From: a virus
DNA: 64,000 nt
Virus record (IMG/VR): IMGVR_UViG_3300014325_000012
Span: 39,453-103,452 of that record
Direction: 5' to 3' (one strand)
Both the position numbers and the translations under genes were made by a program. The notes under the pieces were generated by a model. It saw only the letters and a program-made list of their open reading frames with translations, searched no databases and was not told the origin of the DNA. This document shows positions 54,702-61,388 of the stretch, piece after piece. Numbering within the stretch: the stretch's first letter is position 1; each line of letters opens with the position of its first letter.

Positions 54702-54762
54702 TAGACACAGTTACAGCAAATCAAAAACATTTACCTGTTAAGTAAACCAAAACGTGTCTAGA
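54702..54762 (+). ncRNA. RCAGCAA element A with Asn(GUU)-like anticodon stem-loop
   Basis: Stem TAGACAC(A)GTT/AACGTGTCTA; ACAGCAAA; inner hairpin TTTAC-CTGTTAA-GTAAA. Confidence 0.75.
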
Positions 54763-54768
54763 TTAACA

Positions 54769-54827
54769 AAAACCCTCACAGCAAATAAAATCTACCGCTC
54801 AAATTGGGAGAAACAAAAGGGTTTTGA
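54769..54827 (+). ncRNA. RCAGCAA element B with Leu(CAA)-like loop
   Basis: Stem AAAACCCT/AGGGTTTT; ACAGCAAA; inner hairpin TCTaCCG-CTCAAAT-TGGgAGA. Confidence 0.7.
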
Positions 54828-56071
54828 TTACTATGCTAACTAATAAACTAATAGAGCAAATAAGTACATTTGAGTCTGTTTGGTGGGAAGAAGACAGAAG
54901 TAAGTTAGGAGAGGAAATATTACTAGGACTAAAGGACGTACAAATACATCCTAAACCTCAGCCCATACCACCTTACGGGGAACATATGAATATAAAAGTG
55001 TATGGGGAGGATGGTAATATGTATACTTTAAGGTACTATTGGTGTCCTAATCAGTCTAATTGTCTAAGGTTTTTCTATAGTTTATGTATATGGTGAGTTA
55101 TGACGGATAAGGAAAGGGATGAATTACTGGCCAAGCTACAAACCTTAAACGCTAATGAACTGGATATCCTCATAGATATTTGGGATAATGCTATTTACAA
55201 AAGAGCTATAGGTAGATGGATTAAAGGCTTCTCCTTGGAGGAAGCAGCCACACCCACACAATTTAAATTAATAGACTTGGGATTAGTCCACACCCACGAG
55301 TTAGGATTCAATGCATTATCTGGAATAAGAACTTTCTCTCTATCAATCCCAAGGGAAACTTCGGGTAATAGACATTCCTATCCCGCAGTTATTAGATTGT
55401 TATTTGACCTTCTGAGAATTAAGAGCAGGCTATTGGAGTAGTTACTATGTATAACGAGAAGAAAATACTGGTTTGTGCTGCTGTAGCAGATAATAGTTGT
55501 ATTGTTATTTACGAATCGGGAAGTTATTGGCAGGGAAATACAATAGAATCTTGCTTAAAATACATCGAAGAGTATCAAAACCATGTAAGCTTATCCCAAA
55601 TTTTAGTTGGTAAAGGAGTTTGGGGAGCGATTTCCAATTGTCTGAAAAAAGAGAAGGCAAGAATAAAGATAAAAGCTATTGTTGAGTTATTGGATGGTAA
55701 CCCATATGATGGGGACTTAACAAAGAAGCTTCGGCTTATATATGACATGGTGGAAGAATATAAAGGCTTTTAGGGGAGATTAGTTGTGGAAAACCCAAAT
55801 ACAAACATTAACAAACTAAAAGTACTACATATGTGCAAAAGGCTTAGGGAAAGACTATTTGCAGCTAATGATGATAACGGTATGGTATGTATTGCAGGAT
55901 ATAGTGAGGATGGGAAATGTGAATATCCTATTATATTTTCCCATAAATGGTCCTCTCCGGAAACATTACAAGCAGTAAATGAATTACTAACTAAAATAGA
56001 GGCTTCCAATAAAGTTTCCAATACCCCTATAATGCAAACAATGGATGAATTATTAAAAGGTAAGTAATATA

Positions 56072-56165
56072 AGTGCGCTTACAGCAAAACAAATTTTCTT
56101 TTTTCACAAAGAATTCTAACGGTTCGATTCCGTGAAACCTGGATGGGGAATAAAAAGCGTGCTGA
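56072..56165 (+). ncRNA. RCAGCAA element C with Glu(UUC)-like loop and a T-arm
   Basis: Stem AGTGCGCTT/AAGCGTGCT (two G-U pairs); ACAGCAAA; TTCTT-TTTTCAC-aAAGAA; ACGG-TTCGATT-CCGT. Confidence 0.75.
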
Positions 56166-58557: not shown

Positions 58558-58895
58558 ACATAAGGGAATCAGAGTATCTTGAAGTAGCTTTATTTGAGCT
58601 TAAACACAAAATAAAGGCTAAGAAGTGGATAGAAGCTGAAACACTACTTCAAGAGCTTAGGGAAGGTATACAAAAAGAGAGGGACAATGAGCTTAATAAA
58701 TGCAAATCCCAAAGGAACTAGTACAGTGCCGGAAAGTATAGACTATTTGTTGGATTGTCTAAATGATGACAAACGAGTTTATATAATGGACGGTTCTAAT
58801 GGTTATGGGTTGGGATTAATAATTGGAGAAGGTAAGGAAAGTAAAGCCTTATTTATATCCTTTTTGTTAGCCCTTAAAAAGCTTCATAGTTAACC

Positions 58896-59894
58896 ATGTG
58901 GGACAATACTCATAAAAACACCATAAGGGAAGAGGTATGCAGAACAGGTAAGAAACCTTACAACTGTATACTTCTCCTCCCTTCCGACGAAATGCTTGAT
59001 ATTAAACAATTGATACAAAGCAGCCAAATAACTCATACTACTAAAATTGTTGCAGTTGAGAGGGATATACATAAAGCTAAGGTAATAAGTAAAAAGCTAG
59101 CTCAGTTTAATGCTGAGGTACTTACTAAAGACCTAGTAGAAGTAGATTTACGGTTTGTAGTAGAGAATTTTACCAAGGAAAAGTTTGATTTTGTTTATGC
59201 TGATACTTGTTCCCAATTAAACTCTCGTATAATAGAGTGGTTGATGGAAGTAAGTAAACATAAACAGGAAATATTTACTCAGGACGGTAAGTTAATAGTA
59301 GCCTTCTGTCCATTTCTCCGTAATGGCAAGCATTTAATGGAGAAGTTTTGGGAAAAATGTAGAACTAACCTAAATTACATTAGATTTGACTTAGCTGGTA
59401 AGGAGATTAATGCCGAGGCAGACTTAGAAGCTGGGGACATTTCCTTTATATCCCGAGTTCATTATAAAACAATAAGAAACATACTTTCTCTTATATTCGG
59501 TCCTCCTGATAAGGAGTACTTGTATAAAGGGGAAAACGCCAAAACTACAATGTCTGTATTTGAGTACAGTCCTAATGCTTGGACTGCCATTGGTCATCAT
59601 AAGTTTTTGCGGGATGTAATAAGCGAGTATAGGGCAGAACAAAGCCATAAAAGTGCTATAACAATAGACATTAAACCAAAGGAAAAGCCTGCTCCAGTAG
59701 AGCTAAAACAGCAATTATTTACTGACATAAGTAATATGTATAGAAGACACTTAGCTGCTTGGAAGATGGTAGCCACTAAGAAAAACTTGAGTGAAGAACA
59801 AACTAAGGCAAAAATAATAGAGGAGTCCTTTAAGTTTGTAGCAGCCAATGGGTATGATAAGTCTGTAATTGATATACTTGTGAGGTCTTTGTAA
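58896..59894 (+). CDS. Methyltransferase-like protein
   Basis: KIVAVERD and KFDFVYADTC resemble Rossmann-fold methyltransferase motifs, but motif I is degenerate. Confidence 0.5.
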   Translation: MWDNTHKNTIREEVCRTGKKPYNCILLLPSDEMLDIKQLIQSSQITHTTKIVAVERDIHKAKVISKKLAQFNAEVLTKDLVEVDLRFVVENFTKEKFDFVYADTCSQLNSRIIEWLMEVSKHKQEIFTQDGKLIVAFCPFLRNGKHLMEKFWEKCRTNLNYIRFDLAGKEINAEADLEAGDISFISRVHYKTIRNILSLIFGPPDKEYLYKGENAKTTMSVFEYSPNAWTAIGHHKFLRDVISEYRAEQSHKSAITIDIKPKEKPAPVELKQQLFTDISNMYRRHLAAWKMVATKKNLSEEQTKAKIIEESFKFVAANGYDKSVIDILVRSL

Positions 59895-61337
59895 TAAATG
59901 AGTAGAAGTACAGTAGCATTAATATTGGCTTTCATGTTTGACTTATACATTATCACCTTCCCAGTGGTTCAAGCCATGGATATGCTTACCTTATTTTTAG
60001 TGGGAATTCTTGTATATGGAATATGTAAGTTTGGTTTAGACCTAATTTTAGGTACTGAATAAATGACAATAACTAAAATACACACTGTTTCCAAAGAAGT
60101 TATGGGTAAATTAAAACATAAATACCCAAACGATAATACAGCAGTAATCTCCATGTGGGACCCTCCTTATTATGAGGAAGAATGGGAGAGTGCATTATAT
60201 AAGTACTCCCATCATAACCTAATTAGTTTAGGGTTTCATGATATAGACGACGAAGACATACTAGAAAACAGTTTATATATTGTGGGTATTGAAAATGCTT
60301 AAAAACTTGGATAAGACAAGTAGCAGATACTTAGTTCACTGTGAAAAGGACTCCTGGCACCAGTCTGAAGGAAAATTCTATTTTTCTTCTCTAAAAGAAG
60401 CCATAAAAGAAATGGAGACCCAGAAGAATAAGGGGAGAGTTTGTTTTTTATACACTGAGCATACAGAAATTACCCACGACCTAATAGAAGAACACCAACC
60501 TGACTTCAAAGTGGTACATAGAGACTTTTGGGCTATGAACGAAGTACGAATAATAGAACAATTTGGTAACTTAATAGTTCAAACACATAATACTTGGAAG
60601 TATAGACCAGCTAGATGGGTGGAATCCCATGACCATTGTGCTAAGAGTGTACTTAATAGCTATAAACAAAAACTACAAAGGAGATAATATGACAGTTAAA
60701 CTAAGTACTGTATTGTGTATGTTTGCCTGCTTTATTGCAGGTACTTGTATAAATAATGCAACCGCACAAACCAACATAGTAGGTATTACAAGGAAAGACT
60801 TATTGGAAGCAGCTTCCCTTCATGCTATACTAATGACACATGATCCATGGGGAACCTTTAACCTCCAAGTAATTAGAACTACTAAGGATCTAGCTAATAT
60901 GGCTCAGAAAGTAGCTGGGGATGTTAAGTAATGGAAACCTTTGTCAAATCCATAATAATCTGTTCTGCTGTTTTTGTTGGTTTAATACTAGTTCTAGAAA
61001 TAGGCTGGGGACTAATAAGAATAGTAGCAGGAATAATGCAGGTGTGTAATGGGTAGTGTAGTAAGGTTAGAAAACTGGCAATTTACTGGAAGCGGGGATA
61101 CTAAAAGACTATTTGGAACTGCTTATGGTCATCCTAGAGTTGAAGATGGTCACAGAGTAAGCACTTCCCTTGTAGATAAAGTAATATATAGTAGTCCTCC
61201 CATAGTAATTACTCAAACAGGAACTAACTATCAATTAGGTGAACCTGACCCAAGTGCAGTGGATAACTGGAAAAACAGTTACAAGCAACTATTTGAGTTG
61301 TTTGACATAAACCCAGAAGAATTAATTAAGTAACATA

Positions 61338-61388
61338 AAGACTCTTGCAGCAATAAAAATAGTTTCAATAACAACAAAAGAGTCTTGA
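61338..61388 (+). ncRNA. RCAGCAA element E (shortest copy)
   Basis: Stem AAGACTCTT/AAGAGTCTT; GCAGCAAT; weak inner hairpin around GTTTCAA. Confidence 0.7.

What the first reader, a model, noticed from the sequence alone, without database searches (positions are those of the whole stretch)
54702..61388. Five covarying RCAGCAA RNA elements displaying tRNA-like loops around a Ro60-like DUF2828 gene
Seen in sequence: five intergenic copies (54702, 54769, 56072, 56953, 61338) share a 8-10 bp closing stem that differs in sequence but always pairs, then RCAGCAA, an A-rich linker, an inner hairpin, an A/C-rich linker, the closing strand and GA. Inner loops resemble anticodon loops: CUGUUAA (Asn, on a 5-bp stem), CUCAAAU (Leu), UUUUCAC (Glu), UUUGGAAU (Pro or Ser, ambiguous); copy E is weak. 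One copy lies about 22 nt before the DUF2828 start. Established: Ro60/TROVE proteins (helical ring plus vWA) bind Y RNAs, some of which mimic tRNA and associate with RNA repair genes. Inference: a protein-bound scaffold presenting interchangeable anticodon loops, perhaps as decoys for host anticodon nucleases or as sensors/regulators.
Basis: partly seen in the sequence, partly recalled or inferred. Interest (0 to 1): 0.88.

Follow-up and report, generated by a model that had tools for sequence, protein, structure and literature searches.

The report
Phage Ro60-like protein's partner RNAs
A soil phage carries five small RNA elements with one shared "handle" around a gene for a Ro60-shaped ring protein; this RNA-protein pairing recurs in hundreds of unrelated phages and bacteria, I found it in no RNA catalogue or paper, and it probably forms a new kind of Y-RNA-like particle that displays tRNA look-alike loops.

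Summary
Five + strand intergenic elements (54702-54762, 54769-54827, 56072-56165, 56953-57008, 61338-61388) share a 7-9 bp covarying terminal helix, then RCAGCAA, a variable insert, the closing strand and G. Covariance models find nothing else like them in the window or the 103-kb contig.

They belong to a large RNA family absent from Rfam. All 11 complete DUF2828-encoding phages tested carry it, beside DUF2828 or in tRNA arrays. Six tRNA-rich phages without DUF2828 lack it. In 80 viral loci, 126 of 126 model hits lie on the DUF2828 strand. Of contigs chosen by the RNA pattern alone, 16 of 16 near-complete ones encode DUF2828.

The protein models (pLDDT 90) as a full-length Ro60/TROVE-like ring plus vWA domain. 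The RNAs lack the Y-RNA CGAA motif.

Anticodon-like loops are about ninefold enriched across the family. Here only copy A (CUGUUAA) is convincing. Copy C carries a hairpin plus a T arm, B and D are weak, and E has none.

Best reading: Y-RNA-like partner RNAs of DUF2828. Binding and any decoy role are untested. The handle resembles Dictyostelium Class I RNAs at motif level only.

This scan has already noted the same family on other DNA (446 notes, at least 295 genomes). I found no published description.

The parts
54702..54762 (+). Handle RNA copy A: 7-bp helix TAGACAC/GTGTCTA, 5-nt spacer, CAGCAA; insert with a 5-bp hairpin whose loop is CUGUUAA (tRNA-Asn-like); trailing GA
   Evidence: R1 26.5 bits without being in the seed; R2 31.0 bits, E 8e-4, not in the seed.
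54769..54827 (+). Handle RNA copy B, in tandem 6 nt after A: 8-bp helix AAAACCCT/AGGGTTTT, ACAGCAA; weak interrupted inner hairpin with loop CUCAAAU
   Evidence: R2 43.5 bits. Sub-threshold hit to RF01414: 24.1 bits against a gathering score of 41.5.
56072..56165 (+). Handle RNA copy C, long form: 9-bp helix with two G-U pairs, ACAGCAA; 69-nt insert = 6-bp hairpin (loop UUUCAC), 5-nt linker, T-arm-like ACGG-UUCGAUU-CCGU, and a further short hairpin
   Evidence: R2 28.8 bits, not in the seed. The same insert layout occurs in relatives such as L093 5787 and L068 5790. Neither ARAGORN nor Rfam calls it a tRNA.
56953..57008 (+). Handle RNA copy D: 8-bp helix AAGACGCT/AGCGTCTT, GCAGCAA; 4-bp hairpin with 8-nt loop UUUGGAAU; ends 22 nt before the DUF2828 start codon
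   Evidence: R2 51.6 bits. A handle RNA lies within 200 nt upstream of DUF2828 at 66 places in 80 viral loci.
57031..58557 (+). DUF2828 + DUF7788 protein (508 aa), predicted Ro60-like HEAT-repeat ring plus vWA domain with an invariant DxSxS...T...D pattern that I read as a MIDAS site; the proposed protein partner
   Evidence: Pfam PF11443 and PF25043. phrog_850 'RNA-binding protein'. AF2 pLDDT 90.2, pTM 0.90. Foldseek top 12 listed matches are all Ro60/TROVE chains, TM 0.39-0.60 over 517-580 columns. Invariant D295, S297, S299, T368, D400.
61338..61388 (+). Handle RNA copy E, minimal form: 9-bp helix AAGACTCTT/AAGAGTCTT (one compensatory pair relative to D), GCAGCAA; 26-nt A-rich insert without a hairpin
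   Evidence: R2 49.0 bits. Sub-threshold RF01414 hit, 22.7 bits.
47897..48892 (+). RNA ligase gene (context, about 8 kb upstream): the only recognisable RNA-repair enzyme near the locus
   Evidence: phrog_968. Pfam PF09414 RNA_ligase, E 1e-28. RNA ligase, RtcB or a tRNA nucleotidyltransferase also lie near DUF2828 in Listeria phage LP-125 and Pectobacterium phage CBB.

Best explanation
The five elements are small RNAs of about 50-95 nt. No dedicated promoter or terminator is evident, so they are probably cut out of the rightward polycistronic transcript. They belong to a widespread, uncatalogued 'handle RNA' family.

The handle has four parts: a 7-bp terminal helix that covaries freely, 2-3 nt (5 nt in copy A), an invariant single-stranded ACAGCAA just after the 5' strand, and a G just after the 3' strand. 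Between these sits a free insert. It can be a short A-rich loop (E), an anticodon-loop look-alike hairpin (A, loosely B and D), or a tRNA-like piece with a T arm (C).

I propose that the handle is the docking site for the phage's DUF2828 protein, a Ro60-shaped ring with a vWA domain. The resulting particle would be analogous to Ro60/Y RNA, and the insert would present tRNA-like features to tRNA-directed enzymes.

Shown: the family, the covariation, the strand bias, the two-way genomic association with DUF2828, the Ro60 fold, and the enrichment of anticodon-like and T loops. Inferred: that the RNAs accumulate, that DUF2828 binds the handle, and what the particle does. Options include a decoy or gate for anticodon nucleases, or a tether for repair or decay enzymes such as the nearby RNA ligase.
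For: - Helix: in 18 members from 12 phages the 7-bp helix is 100% paired, with 50 doubly changed cells against 12.8 in shuffles (0 of 500). Slid controls are about 40% paired.
- Specificity in this genome: only the five copies score in the window and contig.
- Association, forward: 11 of 11 complete DUF2828+ phages of unrelated hosts have hits at E < 1e-4, next to DUF2828 or in tRNA arrays. These include unseeded clusters in Pectobacterium phage CBB and Fusobacterium phage FNU3.
- Controls: T4, T5, SPO1, S-PM2, Bxz1 and K have tRNA genes but no DUF2828, and no hit below E 0.37.
- Strand: in 80 IMG/VR DUF2828 loci, 126 of 126 hits at E <= 0.05 lie on the DUF2828 strand. A plain pattern scan gives 239 + against 22 - hits, with 66 hits within 200 nt upstream of the gene.
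- Replicate: 80 bacterial and archaeal genome loci give 199 + against 13 - hits.
- Association, reverse: of 49 viral contigs picked by the RNA pattern alone, 39 encode DUF2828, including 16 of 16 that are at least 90% complete. The base rate is 711 of 50,697 phage records.
- Protein: the AF2 model (pLDDT 90.2) matches Ro60 chains over its full length.
- Inserts: anticodon-like hairpins occur in 44 of 202 unique inserts against 4.9 +/- 2.1 in shuffles, and in 44 of 198 against 5.05 in a second set. The T-loop motif GTTCRA occurs in 38 against 4.7.
- Not explained by tRNA islands: this window has no tRNA near the locus (the contig's two tRNAs lie far away), yet the RNAs flank DUF2828.
Against: - There is no expression or binding evidence for this phage.
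- No promoter or terminator signal above chance lies around the copies, so separate small RNAs are an inference.
- Four copies end 7-27 nt before a start codon, which also fits a cis-acting role.
- In Pectobacterium phage CBB the RNAs lie about 200 kb from DUF2828, so adjacency is not universal.
- The model hits were selected for pairing, so the covariation statistics are partly circular. Many IMG/VR loci come from one sample set and are not independent.
- A G-U versus A-C test for RNA-level pairing was inconclusive.
- Ro60 likeness is by fold only. No sequence-level hit to any solved Ro60 was found.
Confidence: 0.72

Rival explanations
1. Cis-acting punctuation of the polycistronic mRNA. The stem plus ACAGCAA units would be processing, stability or translation-control sites for the genes that follow, as RNase III sites are in T7. 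DUF2828 would be at most the factor acting on them, and no free small RNAs would form a particle.
For: All five copies fill intergenic gaps on the coding strand and end 7-27 nt before the next start codon. No separate promoters or terminators are detected.
Against: In other phages the same units sit between tRNA genes with no ORF downstream, for example nt-1, Felix O1-like Phi87, CBB and a giant-virus MAG. They also occur in tandem arrays of 3-8. Many carry tRNA-like inserts, including permuted tRNA bodies with an encoded CCA, which makes no sense for an mRNA leader.
Confidence: 0.1
2. The handle RNAs are real small RNAs, but their partner is not DUF2828. It would be another factor of a co-inherited RNA-repair or tRNA module (RNA ligase, RtcB, a host protein), and DUF2828 would merely travel with them.
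For: RNA ligase, RtcB, polynucleotide kinase or CCA-adding enzyme genes lie near DUF2828 in several phages. In CBB the RNAs are far from DUF2828.
Against: DUF2828 is the only gene common to every carrier examined. Fusobacterium phage FNU3 and Campylobacter phage Los1 have the RNA right before DUF2828, and mycobacteriophage Rumpelstiltskin right after it, without an adjacent repair gene. 16 of 16 near-complete contigs chosen by the RNA alone encode DUF2828. Its Ro60 fold is that of a known RNA-helix and single-strand binder.
Confidence: 0.1
3. One reading: the particle is a decoy or sensor that offers anticodon loops to host anticodon nucleases. This is a sub-case of the best explanation, not an alternative to the RNP.
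For: The family's inserts copy real anticodon loops together with their position 37-38 context: CUUUUAA Lys, CUGUUAA Asn, CUGUAAA Tyr, CUUGAAA Ser, UUUGGGU Pro, CUCAUAA Met, CUUUCAC Glu. Several of these are, from my own knowledge, loops of tRNAs targeted by known anticodon nucleases. The RNAs sit with phage tRNA genes and RNA-repair genes.
Against: Only about a fifth of inserts show such loops. Others are unstructured or are permuted tRNA bodies with no anticodon loop at all. In this window only copy A qualifies. The stems do not mimic tRNA stems. No nuclease is identified and nothing was tested.
Confidence: 0.2
4. Chance similarity or a DNA-level repeat (a recombination site or a miniature mobile element).
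For: The units are short and AT-rich, and the G-U versus A-C test was inconclusive.
Against: Helix sequences differ while pairing is kept, which a DNA repeat with conserved ends would not show. The strand bias relative to the gene is absolute: 126 of 126. Shuffles give 1.08 against 6 observed. The motif is conserved across phages of many bacterial phyla.
Confidence: 0.01

Closest known systems
Ro60 (Rsr/TROVE2) with Y RNAs: vertebrate Y RNAs, Deinococcus Yrn1, Salmonella and Mycobacterium YrlA/YrlB (Chen et al. 2014, PMC4201824; Rfam RF02553), and Thermus phage phiLo Ro60 with Yrl1/Yrl2 (PMC12135203; PDB 9KOP, 9L5Y)
   Same: A ring-shaped HEAT-repeat plus vWA protein (fold match) is encoded next to one or several small RNAs on the same strand. 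The RNA ends form a terminal helix with an adjacent conserved motif, and the rest is variable. Some RNAs carry tRNA-like modules: a T arm in copy C, and permuted tRNA bodies in relatives. Association with RtcB or RNA ligase recalls the rsr-yrlBA-rtcBA operon.
   Different: The protein is in Pfam DUF2828/DUF7788, not TROVE, and has no sequence-level match to solved Ro60s. The RNAs lack the GNCGAAN0-1G / GGUCCGA bulged-helix motif and carry ACAGCAA instead. The YrlA model does not score them. Bxz1 carries no handle RNA; from my own recollection it is a mycobacteriophage with a true Ro60, which I did not check here. Copy numbers are higher and many members are only 50-60 nt.
Class I RNAs of dictyostelid social amoebae (Rfam RF01414; Kjellin et al. 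2021, PMC7919456)
   Same: The design is the same: about 60 nt, a short covarying helix joining the 5' and 3' ends, a conserved single-stranded motif right after the 5' strand that contains ACAGCAA (CCUUACAGCAA in Dictyostelium; copy C has CUUACAGCAA), an A/U-rich variable remainder, and a trailing (U)G. They are multi-copy. RF01414 was the best-scoring Rfam family on copies B and E and hit a Listeria phage member.
   Different: Scores are 22-24 bits against a gathering score of 41.5, and the match was not recovered at E <= 10 in a larger run. The invariant 5' G and the DUSE promoter of Class I RNAs are absent. The Dictyostelium helix is 6 bp, the phage helix 7. The known Class I binder is an RRM protein (Rnp1A/CIBP), not a Ro60-like protein. 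I could not check whether dictyostelids encode DUF2828.
Phage tRNA genes and tRNA-like elements in phage tRNA arrays
   Same: They share the location (inside or beside tRNA arrays in many carriers), a 7-bp terminal helix like an acceptor stem, and inserts that copy anticodon loops or T arms.
   Different: There is no cloverleaf, no D arm and no tRNA call by ARAGORN or Rfam for the window copies. ACAGCAA occupies the place of positions 8 onward. In the 80 viral loci only 4 of 239 pattern hits overlap an ARAGORN tRNA.

Membership tests
ACAGCAA-handle RNA family linked to DUF2828 (uncatalogued; defined here by models R1 and R2) | 7-bp terminal helix joining the 5' and 3' ends, covarying | tested here: met
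   All five copies pair over 7-9 bp. In the family alignment, 7 pairs are 100% paired with changes on both sides in every pair.
ACAGCAA-handle RNA family linked to DUF2828 (uncatalogued; defined here by models R1 and R2) | (A/G)CAGCAA 2-3 nt after the 5' strand, and a G right after the 3' strand | tested here: met
   Present in all five copies; copy A has a 5-nt spacer. Family logo.
ACAGCAA-handle RNA family linked to DUF2828 (uncatalogued; defined here by models R1 and R2) | Significant covariance-model score without being in the seed | tested here: met
   A: 26.5 bits with R1. A 31.0 and C 28.8 bits with R2. B, D and E were seeds.
ACAGCAA-handle RNA family linked to DUF2828 (uncatalogued; defined here by models R1 and R2) | Same strand as, and in a genome with, a DUF2828 gene | tested here: met
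   All five copies are on the DUF2828 strand, within 2.4 kb upstream to 2.8 kb downstream of the gene.
Y RNA / YrlA (Rfam RF00019, RF02553) | Rfam model score at or above gathering | tested here: not met
   No hit at gathering on the window and none at E <= 10 on 54600-61500.
Y RNA / YrlA (Rfam RF00019, RF02553) | GNCGAAN0-1G (bacteria) or GGUCCGA (animals) motif in the Ro-binding helix (PMC4201824) | tested here: not met
   None of the five sequences contains CGAA (read).
Y RNA / YrlA (Rfam RF00019, RF02553) | Bound by a Ro60-type protein encoded nearby | not testable with these tools
   A Ro60-fold protein is encoded 22 nt downstream of copy D. Binding cannot be computed here.
Dictyostelid Class I RNA (Rfam RF01414) | Rfam model score at or above gathering (41.5 bits) | tested here: not met
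   24.1 bits (B) and 22.7 bits (E), E 0.46 and 1. A, C and D were not reported.
Dictyostelid Class I RNA (Rfam RF01414) | 11-nt motif CCUUACAGCAA next to the 5' strand of a short terminal stem | tested here: inconclusive
   7-10 of 11 positions match: C has CUUACAGCAA, D and E have CUUGCAGCAA. The positions that are near-invariant in all dictyostelids (U3, C6, C9, A10, A11; PMC7919456) are kept in C, D and E.
Dictyostelid Class I RNA (Rfam RF01414) | Invariant 5'-most G and an upstream DUSE promoter | tested here: not met
   The phage helices start with A or U. No eukaryotic promoter context applies.
tRNA | Cloverleaf recognised by ARAGORN or Rfam RF00005 | tested here: not met
   The only tRNA in the window is tRNA-Ser at 5970. 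There is no tRNA hit at E <= 10 on the five copies.
Ro60/TROVE protein family (for the DUF2828 protein) | HEAT-repeat ring plus C-terminal vWA domain with MIDAS | tested here: met
   Full-length Foldseek matches to 1YVR, 1YVP, 2I91, 9KOP and 9L5Y (TM 0.52-0.60); 2NVO matches more weakly (TM 0.39). Invariant D295-x-S297-x-S299, T368 and D400.
Ro60/TROVE protein family (for the DUF2828 protein) | Sequence membership (a Pfam TROVE hit, or a profile hit to solved Ro60) | tested here: not met
   Pfam gives only PF11443 and PF25043. phmmer and a 44-sequence profile find no Ro60 chain in the PDB.

The most novel reading that the evidence does not exclude
The phage and bacterial ACAGCAA-handle RNAs and the Class I RNAs of Dictyostelium would be one RNA class, either homologous (perhaps exchanged through giant viruses of amoebae, which also carry the handle RNAs) or convergent on the same protein-docking handle. 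The long-unexplained Class I RNAs would then be Y-RNA-like partners of a Ro60-like (DUF2828-type) protein in social amoebae. DUF2828 proteins across viruses, bacteria, archaea and eukaryotes would form a second, unrecognised Ro/Y-RNA system.
Probability: 0.12. Interest if true: 0.9.

Novelty: new variant of a known kind. Interest (0 to 1): 0.8.

Why it matters
DUF2828 is a very large family of unknown function. More than 7,000 homologues turned up in one search. It is in 1.4% of deposited phage genomes, including Felix O1, Listeria P100-type, Tsamsa, KVP40-type and cluster L mycobacteriophages.

Assigning it a Ro60 fold and a dedicated, easily recognised RNA partner turns it into a testable ribonucleoprotein system. 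That system sits where phages fight hosts over tRNAs, among tRNA arrays, RtcB and RNA ligases. It would be a second lineage of Ro/Y-RNA-like particles with a different recognition code (ACAGCAA instead of CGAA) and swappable tRNA-mimic inserts.

The design of its handle is the same as that of the Class I RNAs of Dictyostelium, whose molecular role is still unknown. That gives a concrete hypothesis for them.

This window is a clean minimal example: few copies, short inserts, no tRNA array nearby. It shows that the RNAs follow DUF2828 rather than tRNA genes.

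Tried and rejected
- blastn of the locus against 50,697 phage records: no match, so no close cultured relative.
- Rfam at gathering: only tRNA-Ser. YrlA and tRNA models do not score the copies.
- RF01414 (Class I RNA) scores only 22-24 bits on some members. It was not recovered at E <= 10 in a 67-kb run over five member-rich loci. 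I therefore reject membership and keep only the motif-level likeness.
- Promoter and terminator scan: fewer sites than in shuffles, so no evidence of own transcription units.
- G-U versus A-C test for RNA-level pairing: inconclusive.
- Sequence searches of the protein and its profile against the PDB: nothing. Only the fold search linked it to Ro60.
- Anticodon census: my first count was inflated by T loops (UUCGAAU read as anticodon CGA). I recounted without them.
- Mimic stems versus same-anticodon tRNA arms of the same locus: no likeness beyond the loop (8.9 of 17 in both comparisons). This rejects the idea that the inserts are copied tRNA arms.
- The look-up of sequencing runs: no RNA holder listed. 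The only holder is the probable source DNA run, a rhizosphere metagenome.
- The protein-atlas search gave only viral and bacterial DUF2828 clusters, so the question of a dictyostelid DUF2828 stays open.
- Literature: five papers mention DUF2828 and none deals with RNA. The Listeria phage CKA15 paper speculates about Y RNAs near its Rsr-like gene but does not define them.

Full report
WHAT IS THERE

The window is the right-hand 64 kb of a 103,452-bp IMG/VR phage contig. It has about 37% G+C and almost all genes are on the + strand. Its only listed holder among public runs, and probable source, is a rhizosphere metagenome.

Each has these parts:
- A terminal helix. A is 7 bp, B 8 bp, C 9 bp with two G-U pairs, D 8 bp and E 9 bp. 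The sequences differ but always pair. D and E differ by one compensatory pair.
- ACAGCAA (A-C) or GCAGCAA (D, E), 2-3 nt after the 5' strand (5 nt in A).
- A variable insert of 26-69 nt.
- The 3' strand, followed by GA.

Copy D ends 22 nt before the start of a 508-aa DUF2828/DUF7788 gene (57031-58557).

A covariance model built from B-E alone (R1) recovered A as the only other hit in the whole contig. A family model that had seen neither A nor C (R2) scored them 31.0 and 28.8 bits with filters off. The next best hit in 64 kb scored 17.5 bits. A plain pattern scan finds 6 hits on the + strand, against 1.08 on average (maximum 4) in 200 dinucleotide shuffles.

IT IS A MEMBER OF A LARGE FAMILY TIED TO DUF2828

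tblastn finds DUF2828 in 711 of 50,697 phage records. Hosts include Escherichia and Salmonella (Felix O1 type), Mycobacterium, Vibrio, Listeria, Staphylococcus, Campylobacter, Enterococcus, Bacillus and Synechococcus.

I fetched 25-kb stretches around the gene in eleven such phages and one IMG/VR relative. R1, which was built only from this window, hit the DUF2828 strand right beside the gene or inside the adjoining tRNA array. This held in eleven of the twelve loci; in the twelfth, CBB, the RNAs lie elsewhere in the genome (next paragraph). Examples:
- Directly upstream of the gene: Fusobacterium phage FNU3, Bacillus phage Tsamsa, Enterococcus phage VRE9_4, Campylobacter phage Los1, and Listeria phage LP-125 (three in tandem).
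- Directly downstream: mycobacteriophage Rumpelstiltskin and a Staphylococcus phage.
- Between tRNA genes: Vibrio phage nt-1, the Felix O1-like phage UAB_Phi87 and Synechococcus phage B23.

Eighteen members from twelve phages align in register. The 7-bp helix is 100% paired, every pair changes on both sides, and 50 cells are doubly changed against 12.8 in shuffles (0 of 500). Sliding the partner columns drops pairing to about 40%. The hits were selected for pairing, so this statistic is partly circular. Their position and strand were not selected.

The refined model (R2) was run on whole records. All 11 complete DUF2828+ phages had hits at E < 1e-4. Unseeded clusters appeared in Pectobacterium phage CBB (eight hits in a tRNA array, about 200 kb from DUF2828) and in FNU3 (next to five tRNAs). 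Six large phages with tRNA genes but no DUF2828 (T4, T5, SPO1, S-PM2, Bxz1, K; 924 kb in all) gave nothing below E 0.37. Eleven of 11 against 0 of 6 gives a Fisher exact p of about 8e-5 (my arithmetic).

In 80 further IMG/VR loci found with a DUF2828 profile:
- 126 of 126 hits at E <= 0.05 lie on the DUF2828 strand.
- My own pattern scan gives 239 + against 22 - strand hits, with a + strand hit in 71 of the 80 loci.
- The strongest pile-up, 66 hits, lies within 200 nt upstream of the gene.

Eighty bacterial and archaeal genome loci, mostly Clostridia and Synergistaceae MAGs, replicate this with 199 + against 13 - hits.

The reverse test also holds. A strict handle pattern with no protein information hit more than 100 viral contigs. 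Of 49 searched whole, 39 encode DUF2828, including all 16 that are at least 90% complete. The ten without it are mostly fragments: eight are 3-23% complete and two are 48% and 70%. Many of these contigs come from one sample set, so they are not fully independent.

THE PROTEIN

Pfam gives DUF2828 plus DUF7788, and PHROGs calls it an RNA-binding protein. Sequence and profile searches do not reach any solved structure.

An AlphaFold2 model made with 44 homologues is confident (pLDDT 90.2, pTM 0.90). Its twelve best listed Foldseek matches in the PDB are all Ro60/TROVE chains aligned over the full length:
- Thermus phage phiLo Ro60 (9KOP, 9L5Y);
- Xenopus and human Ro60 (1YVR, 1YVP, 2I91, 9NEP and related entries);
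- Deinococcus Rsr (2NVO).
E-values run from 5e-8 to 2e-4 and TM-scores from 0.39 to 0.60.

D295-x-S297-x-S299, T368 and D400 are invariant; I read them as the vWA MIDAS residues.

COMPARISON WITH KNOWN RNAs

Bacterial and phage Y RNAs (YrlA, YrlB, Yrn1, and Yrl1/2 of phiLo) are defined by a GNCGAA-type motif in a bulged terminal helix (PMC4201824, PMC12135203). The five copies have no CGAA, and the YrlA model does not score them. They work like Y RNAs on paper: a terminal helix, an adjacent conserved motif, a variable and sometimes tRNA-like body, and a gene next to a Ro60-shaped protein. They are not members of that family.

The best Rfam match is, unexpectedly, the Class I RNA of Dictyostelium (RF01414), which hit copies B and E at 24.1 and 22.7 bits. 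That family has the same design: about 60 nt, a 6-bp covarying end-to-end stem, the motif CCUUACAGCAA right after the 5' strand, and a variable rest (PMC7919456). The scores are far below the gathering score of 41.5. The invariant 5' G is absent, and the match vanished in a larger run. I keep it as a striking motif-level likeness, not a membership.

I found no paper describing the ACAGCAA family. Five papers mention DUF2828, none in an RNA context. The Listeria phage CKA15 study speculates that highly transcribed non-coding regions upstream of its Rsr-like gene may be Y RNAs, without defining them.

THE INSERTS AND THE ANTICODON IDEA

In this window:
- Copy A has a clean 5-bp stem with the loop CUGUUAA, which is exactly a tRNA-Asn anticodon loop.
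- Copy C has a 6-bp stem with a 6-nt loop, UUUCAC. It continues with a 5-nt linker and a T-arm-like ACGG-UUCGAUU-CCGU, so it resembles the lower half of a tRNA.
- Copy D has 4 bp with the 8-nt loop UUUGGAAU. The family's Pro-like loop is UUUGGGU.
- Copy B's CUCAAAU sits on an interrupted stem.
- Copy E has no hairpin.

Across the family the idea fares better. My first count was inflated, because T loops (UUCGAAU) also satisfy Y-U-NNN-R. After removing them, 44 of 202 unique inserts carry a 5-bp/7-nt Y-U-NNN-R hairpin, against 4.9 +/- 2.1 in shuffles (maximum 10 of 300). The second set gives 44 of 198 against 5.05 +/- 2.15.

The commonest loops are real anticodon loops, including their 37-38 context: CUUGAAA (Ser), UUUGGGU (Pro), CUUUUAA (Lys), CUCAUAA (Met), CUGUUAA (Asn), CUGUAAA (Tyr), CUUUCAC (Glu) and CUGAAAA (Phe). 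The stems do not resemble the stems of same-anticodon tRNAs in the same locus, so only the loop is imitated.

T-loop motifs are also enriched, 38 against 4.7. Some long inserts are circularly permuted tRNA bodies: T arm, acceptor 3' strand with CCA, acceptor 5' strand, then D arm. In these the handle sits where the anticodon loop would be, which is how I recall the tRNA-like domain of YrlA being arranged.

The inserts thus fall into three types: an anticodon-loop display, a tRNA-body mimic, and a bare loop.

HOW IT MOST LIKELY WORKS

The RNAs are probably processed out of the rightward transcript, since no own promoters or terminators are detectable. The handle docks on DUF2828 and the insert is exposed. 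The handle consists of the helix, the single-stranded ACAGCAA and the trailing G.

By analogy with Ro60/Y RNA, the RNA could gate the ring or tether it to other enzymes. Its tRNA-like inserts, together with the company it keeps, point to the contest over tRNAs during infection. That company includes tRNA arrays, RtcB, RNA ligases and a CCA-adding enzyme in other phages, and an RNA ligase 8 kb upstream here.

All functional steps are inference. I give about 0.72 to "partner RNAs of DUF2828" and about 0.2 to the specific decoy reading.

The rivals are cis-acting mRNA punctuation, another protein partner, and a DNA repeat or chance. They are weighed under Rival explanations. Three facts argue against them: the RNAs occur inside tRNA arrays without downstream ORFs, DUF2828 is the only constant companion, and the strand bias is absolute.

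STANDING

This scan has already noted the same family on other DNA (446 notes in at least 295 genomes). I reached the same reading before consulting those notes, and tested association, fold and insert content myself.

Relative to the published record that I could search, the RNA family and its pairing with DUF2828 are undescribed. I class it as a new variant of the Ro60/Y-RNA kind.

No tool here can test RNA-protein binding.

Noticed in passing
L013 10462-11013 (Listeria phage LP-125, about 1 kb upstream of its DUF2828 gene): A near-threshold ROOL RNA match (87.4 bits, gathering 99.1, E 4e-16). By position it probably corresponds to the very highly transcribed 'non-coding' region 26,236-26,727 reported for the related phage CKA15 (PMC12282133). 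That region may therefore be a ROOL-type RNA rather than a Y RNA.
   Followed up: partly
L104 3019, L048 2934, L050 643, L101 5501 (IMG/VR DUF2828 loci): Some long handle-RNA inserts look like circularly permuted tRNAs: T arm, acceptor 3' strand with an encoded CCA, acceptor 5' strand, then D arm. The handle helix replaces the anticodon loop.
   Followed up: partly
L111 122-714 (giant-virus MAG contig IMGVR_UViG_GVMAG-M-3300017963-53_000001): Three near-identical handle RNAs (AAAGACAC...ACAGCAA...GTGTCTTG) each lie about 10 nt before a tRNA-Leu gene. No DUF2828 is in the 11.3 kb held. The family therefore also occurs in a putative giant virus.
   Followed up: partly
window 28672-29430 and 29691-30503 (+): Two neighbouring genes for R2K-clade ATP-grasp proteins (Pfam PF18299 and PF14243). 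Their function in this phage is unknown.
   Followed up: no
window 47231-47878 (-) and 47897-48892 (+): An HNH endonuclease gene lies back to back with the RNA ligase gene (PF09414 with a PHA02142 OB-fold domain).
   Followed up: no
L045 7571-7688 and 7860-7978; L083 7580-7699 and 7874-7985: tRNA matches of about 110-120 nt, that is with insertions of about 45 nt, lie between handle RNAs just downstream of DUF2828. They may be interrupted or intron-bearing tRNAs.
   Followed up: no
L045 848-884; L045 12001-12087; L083 9234-9343: An abiF RNA match above gathering (53.8 bits against 37), and sub-threshold wcaG RNA matches, in the same tRNA/DUF2828 islands.
   Followed up: no
window 5970-6046 and contig position 38201-38275: The whole 103-kb contig has only two tRNA genes, Ser(CGA) and Met(CAU). 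Both are far from the DUF2828 locus, unlike most carriers, where the gene sits in a tRNA array.
   Followed up: yes
L013 1962-2315 (-), Listeria phage LP-125: A weak group I intron match (27.9 bits, gathering 50) lies next to the terminase large-subunit gene.
   Followed up: no
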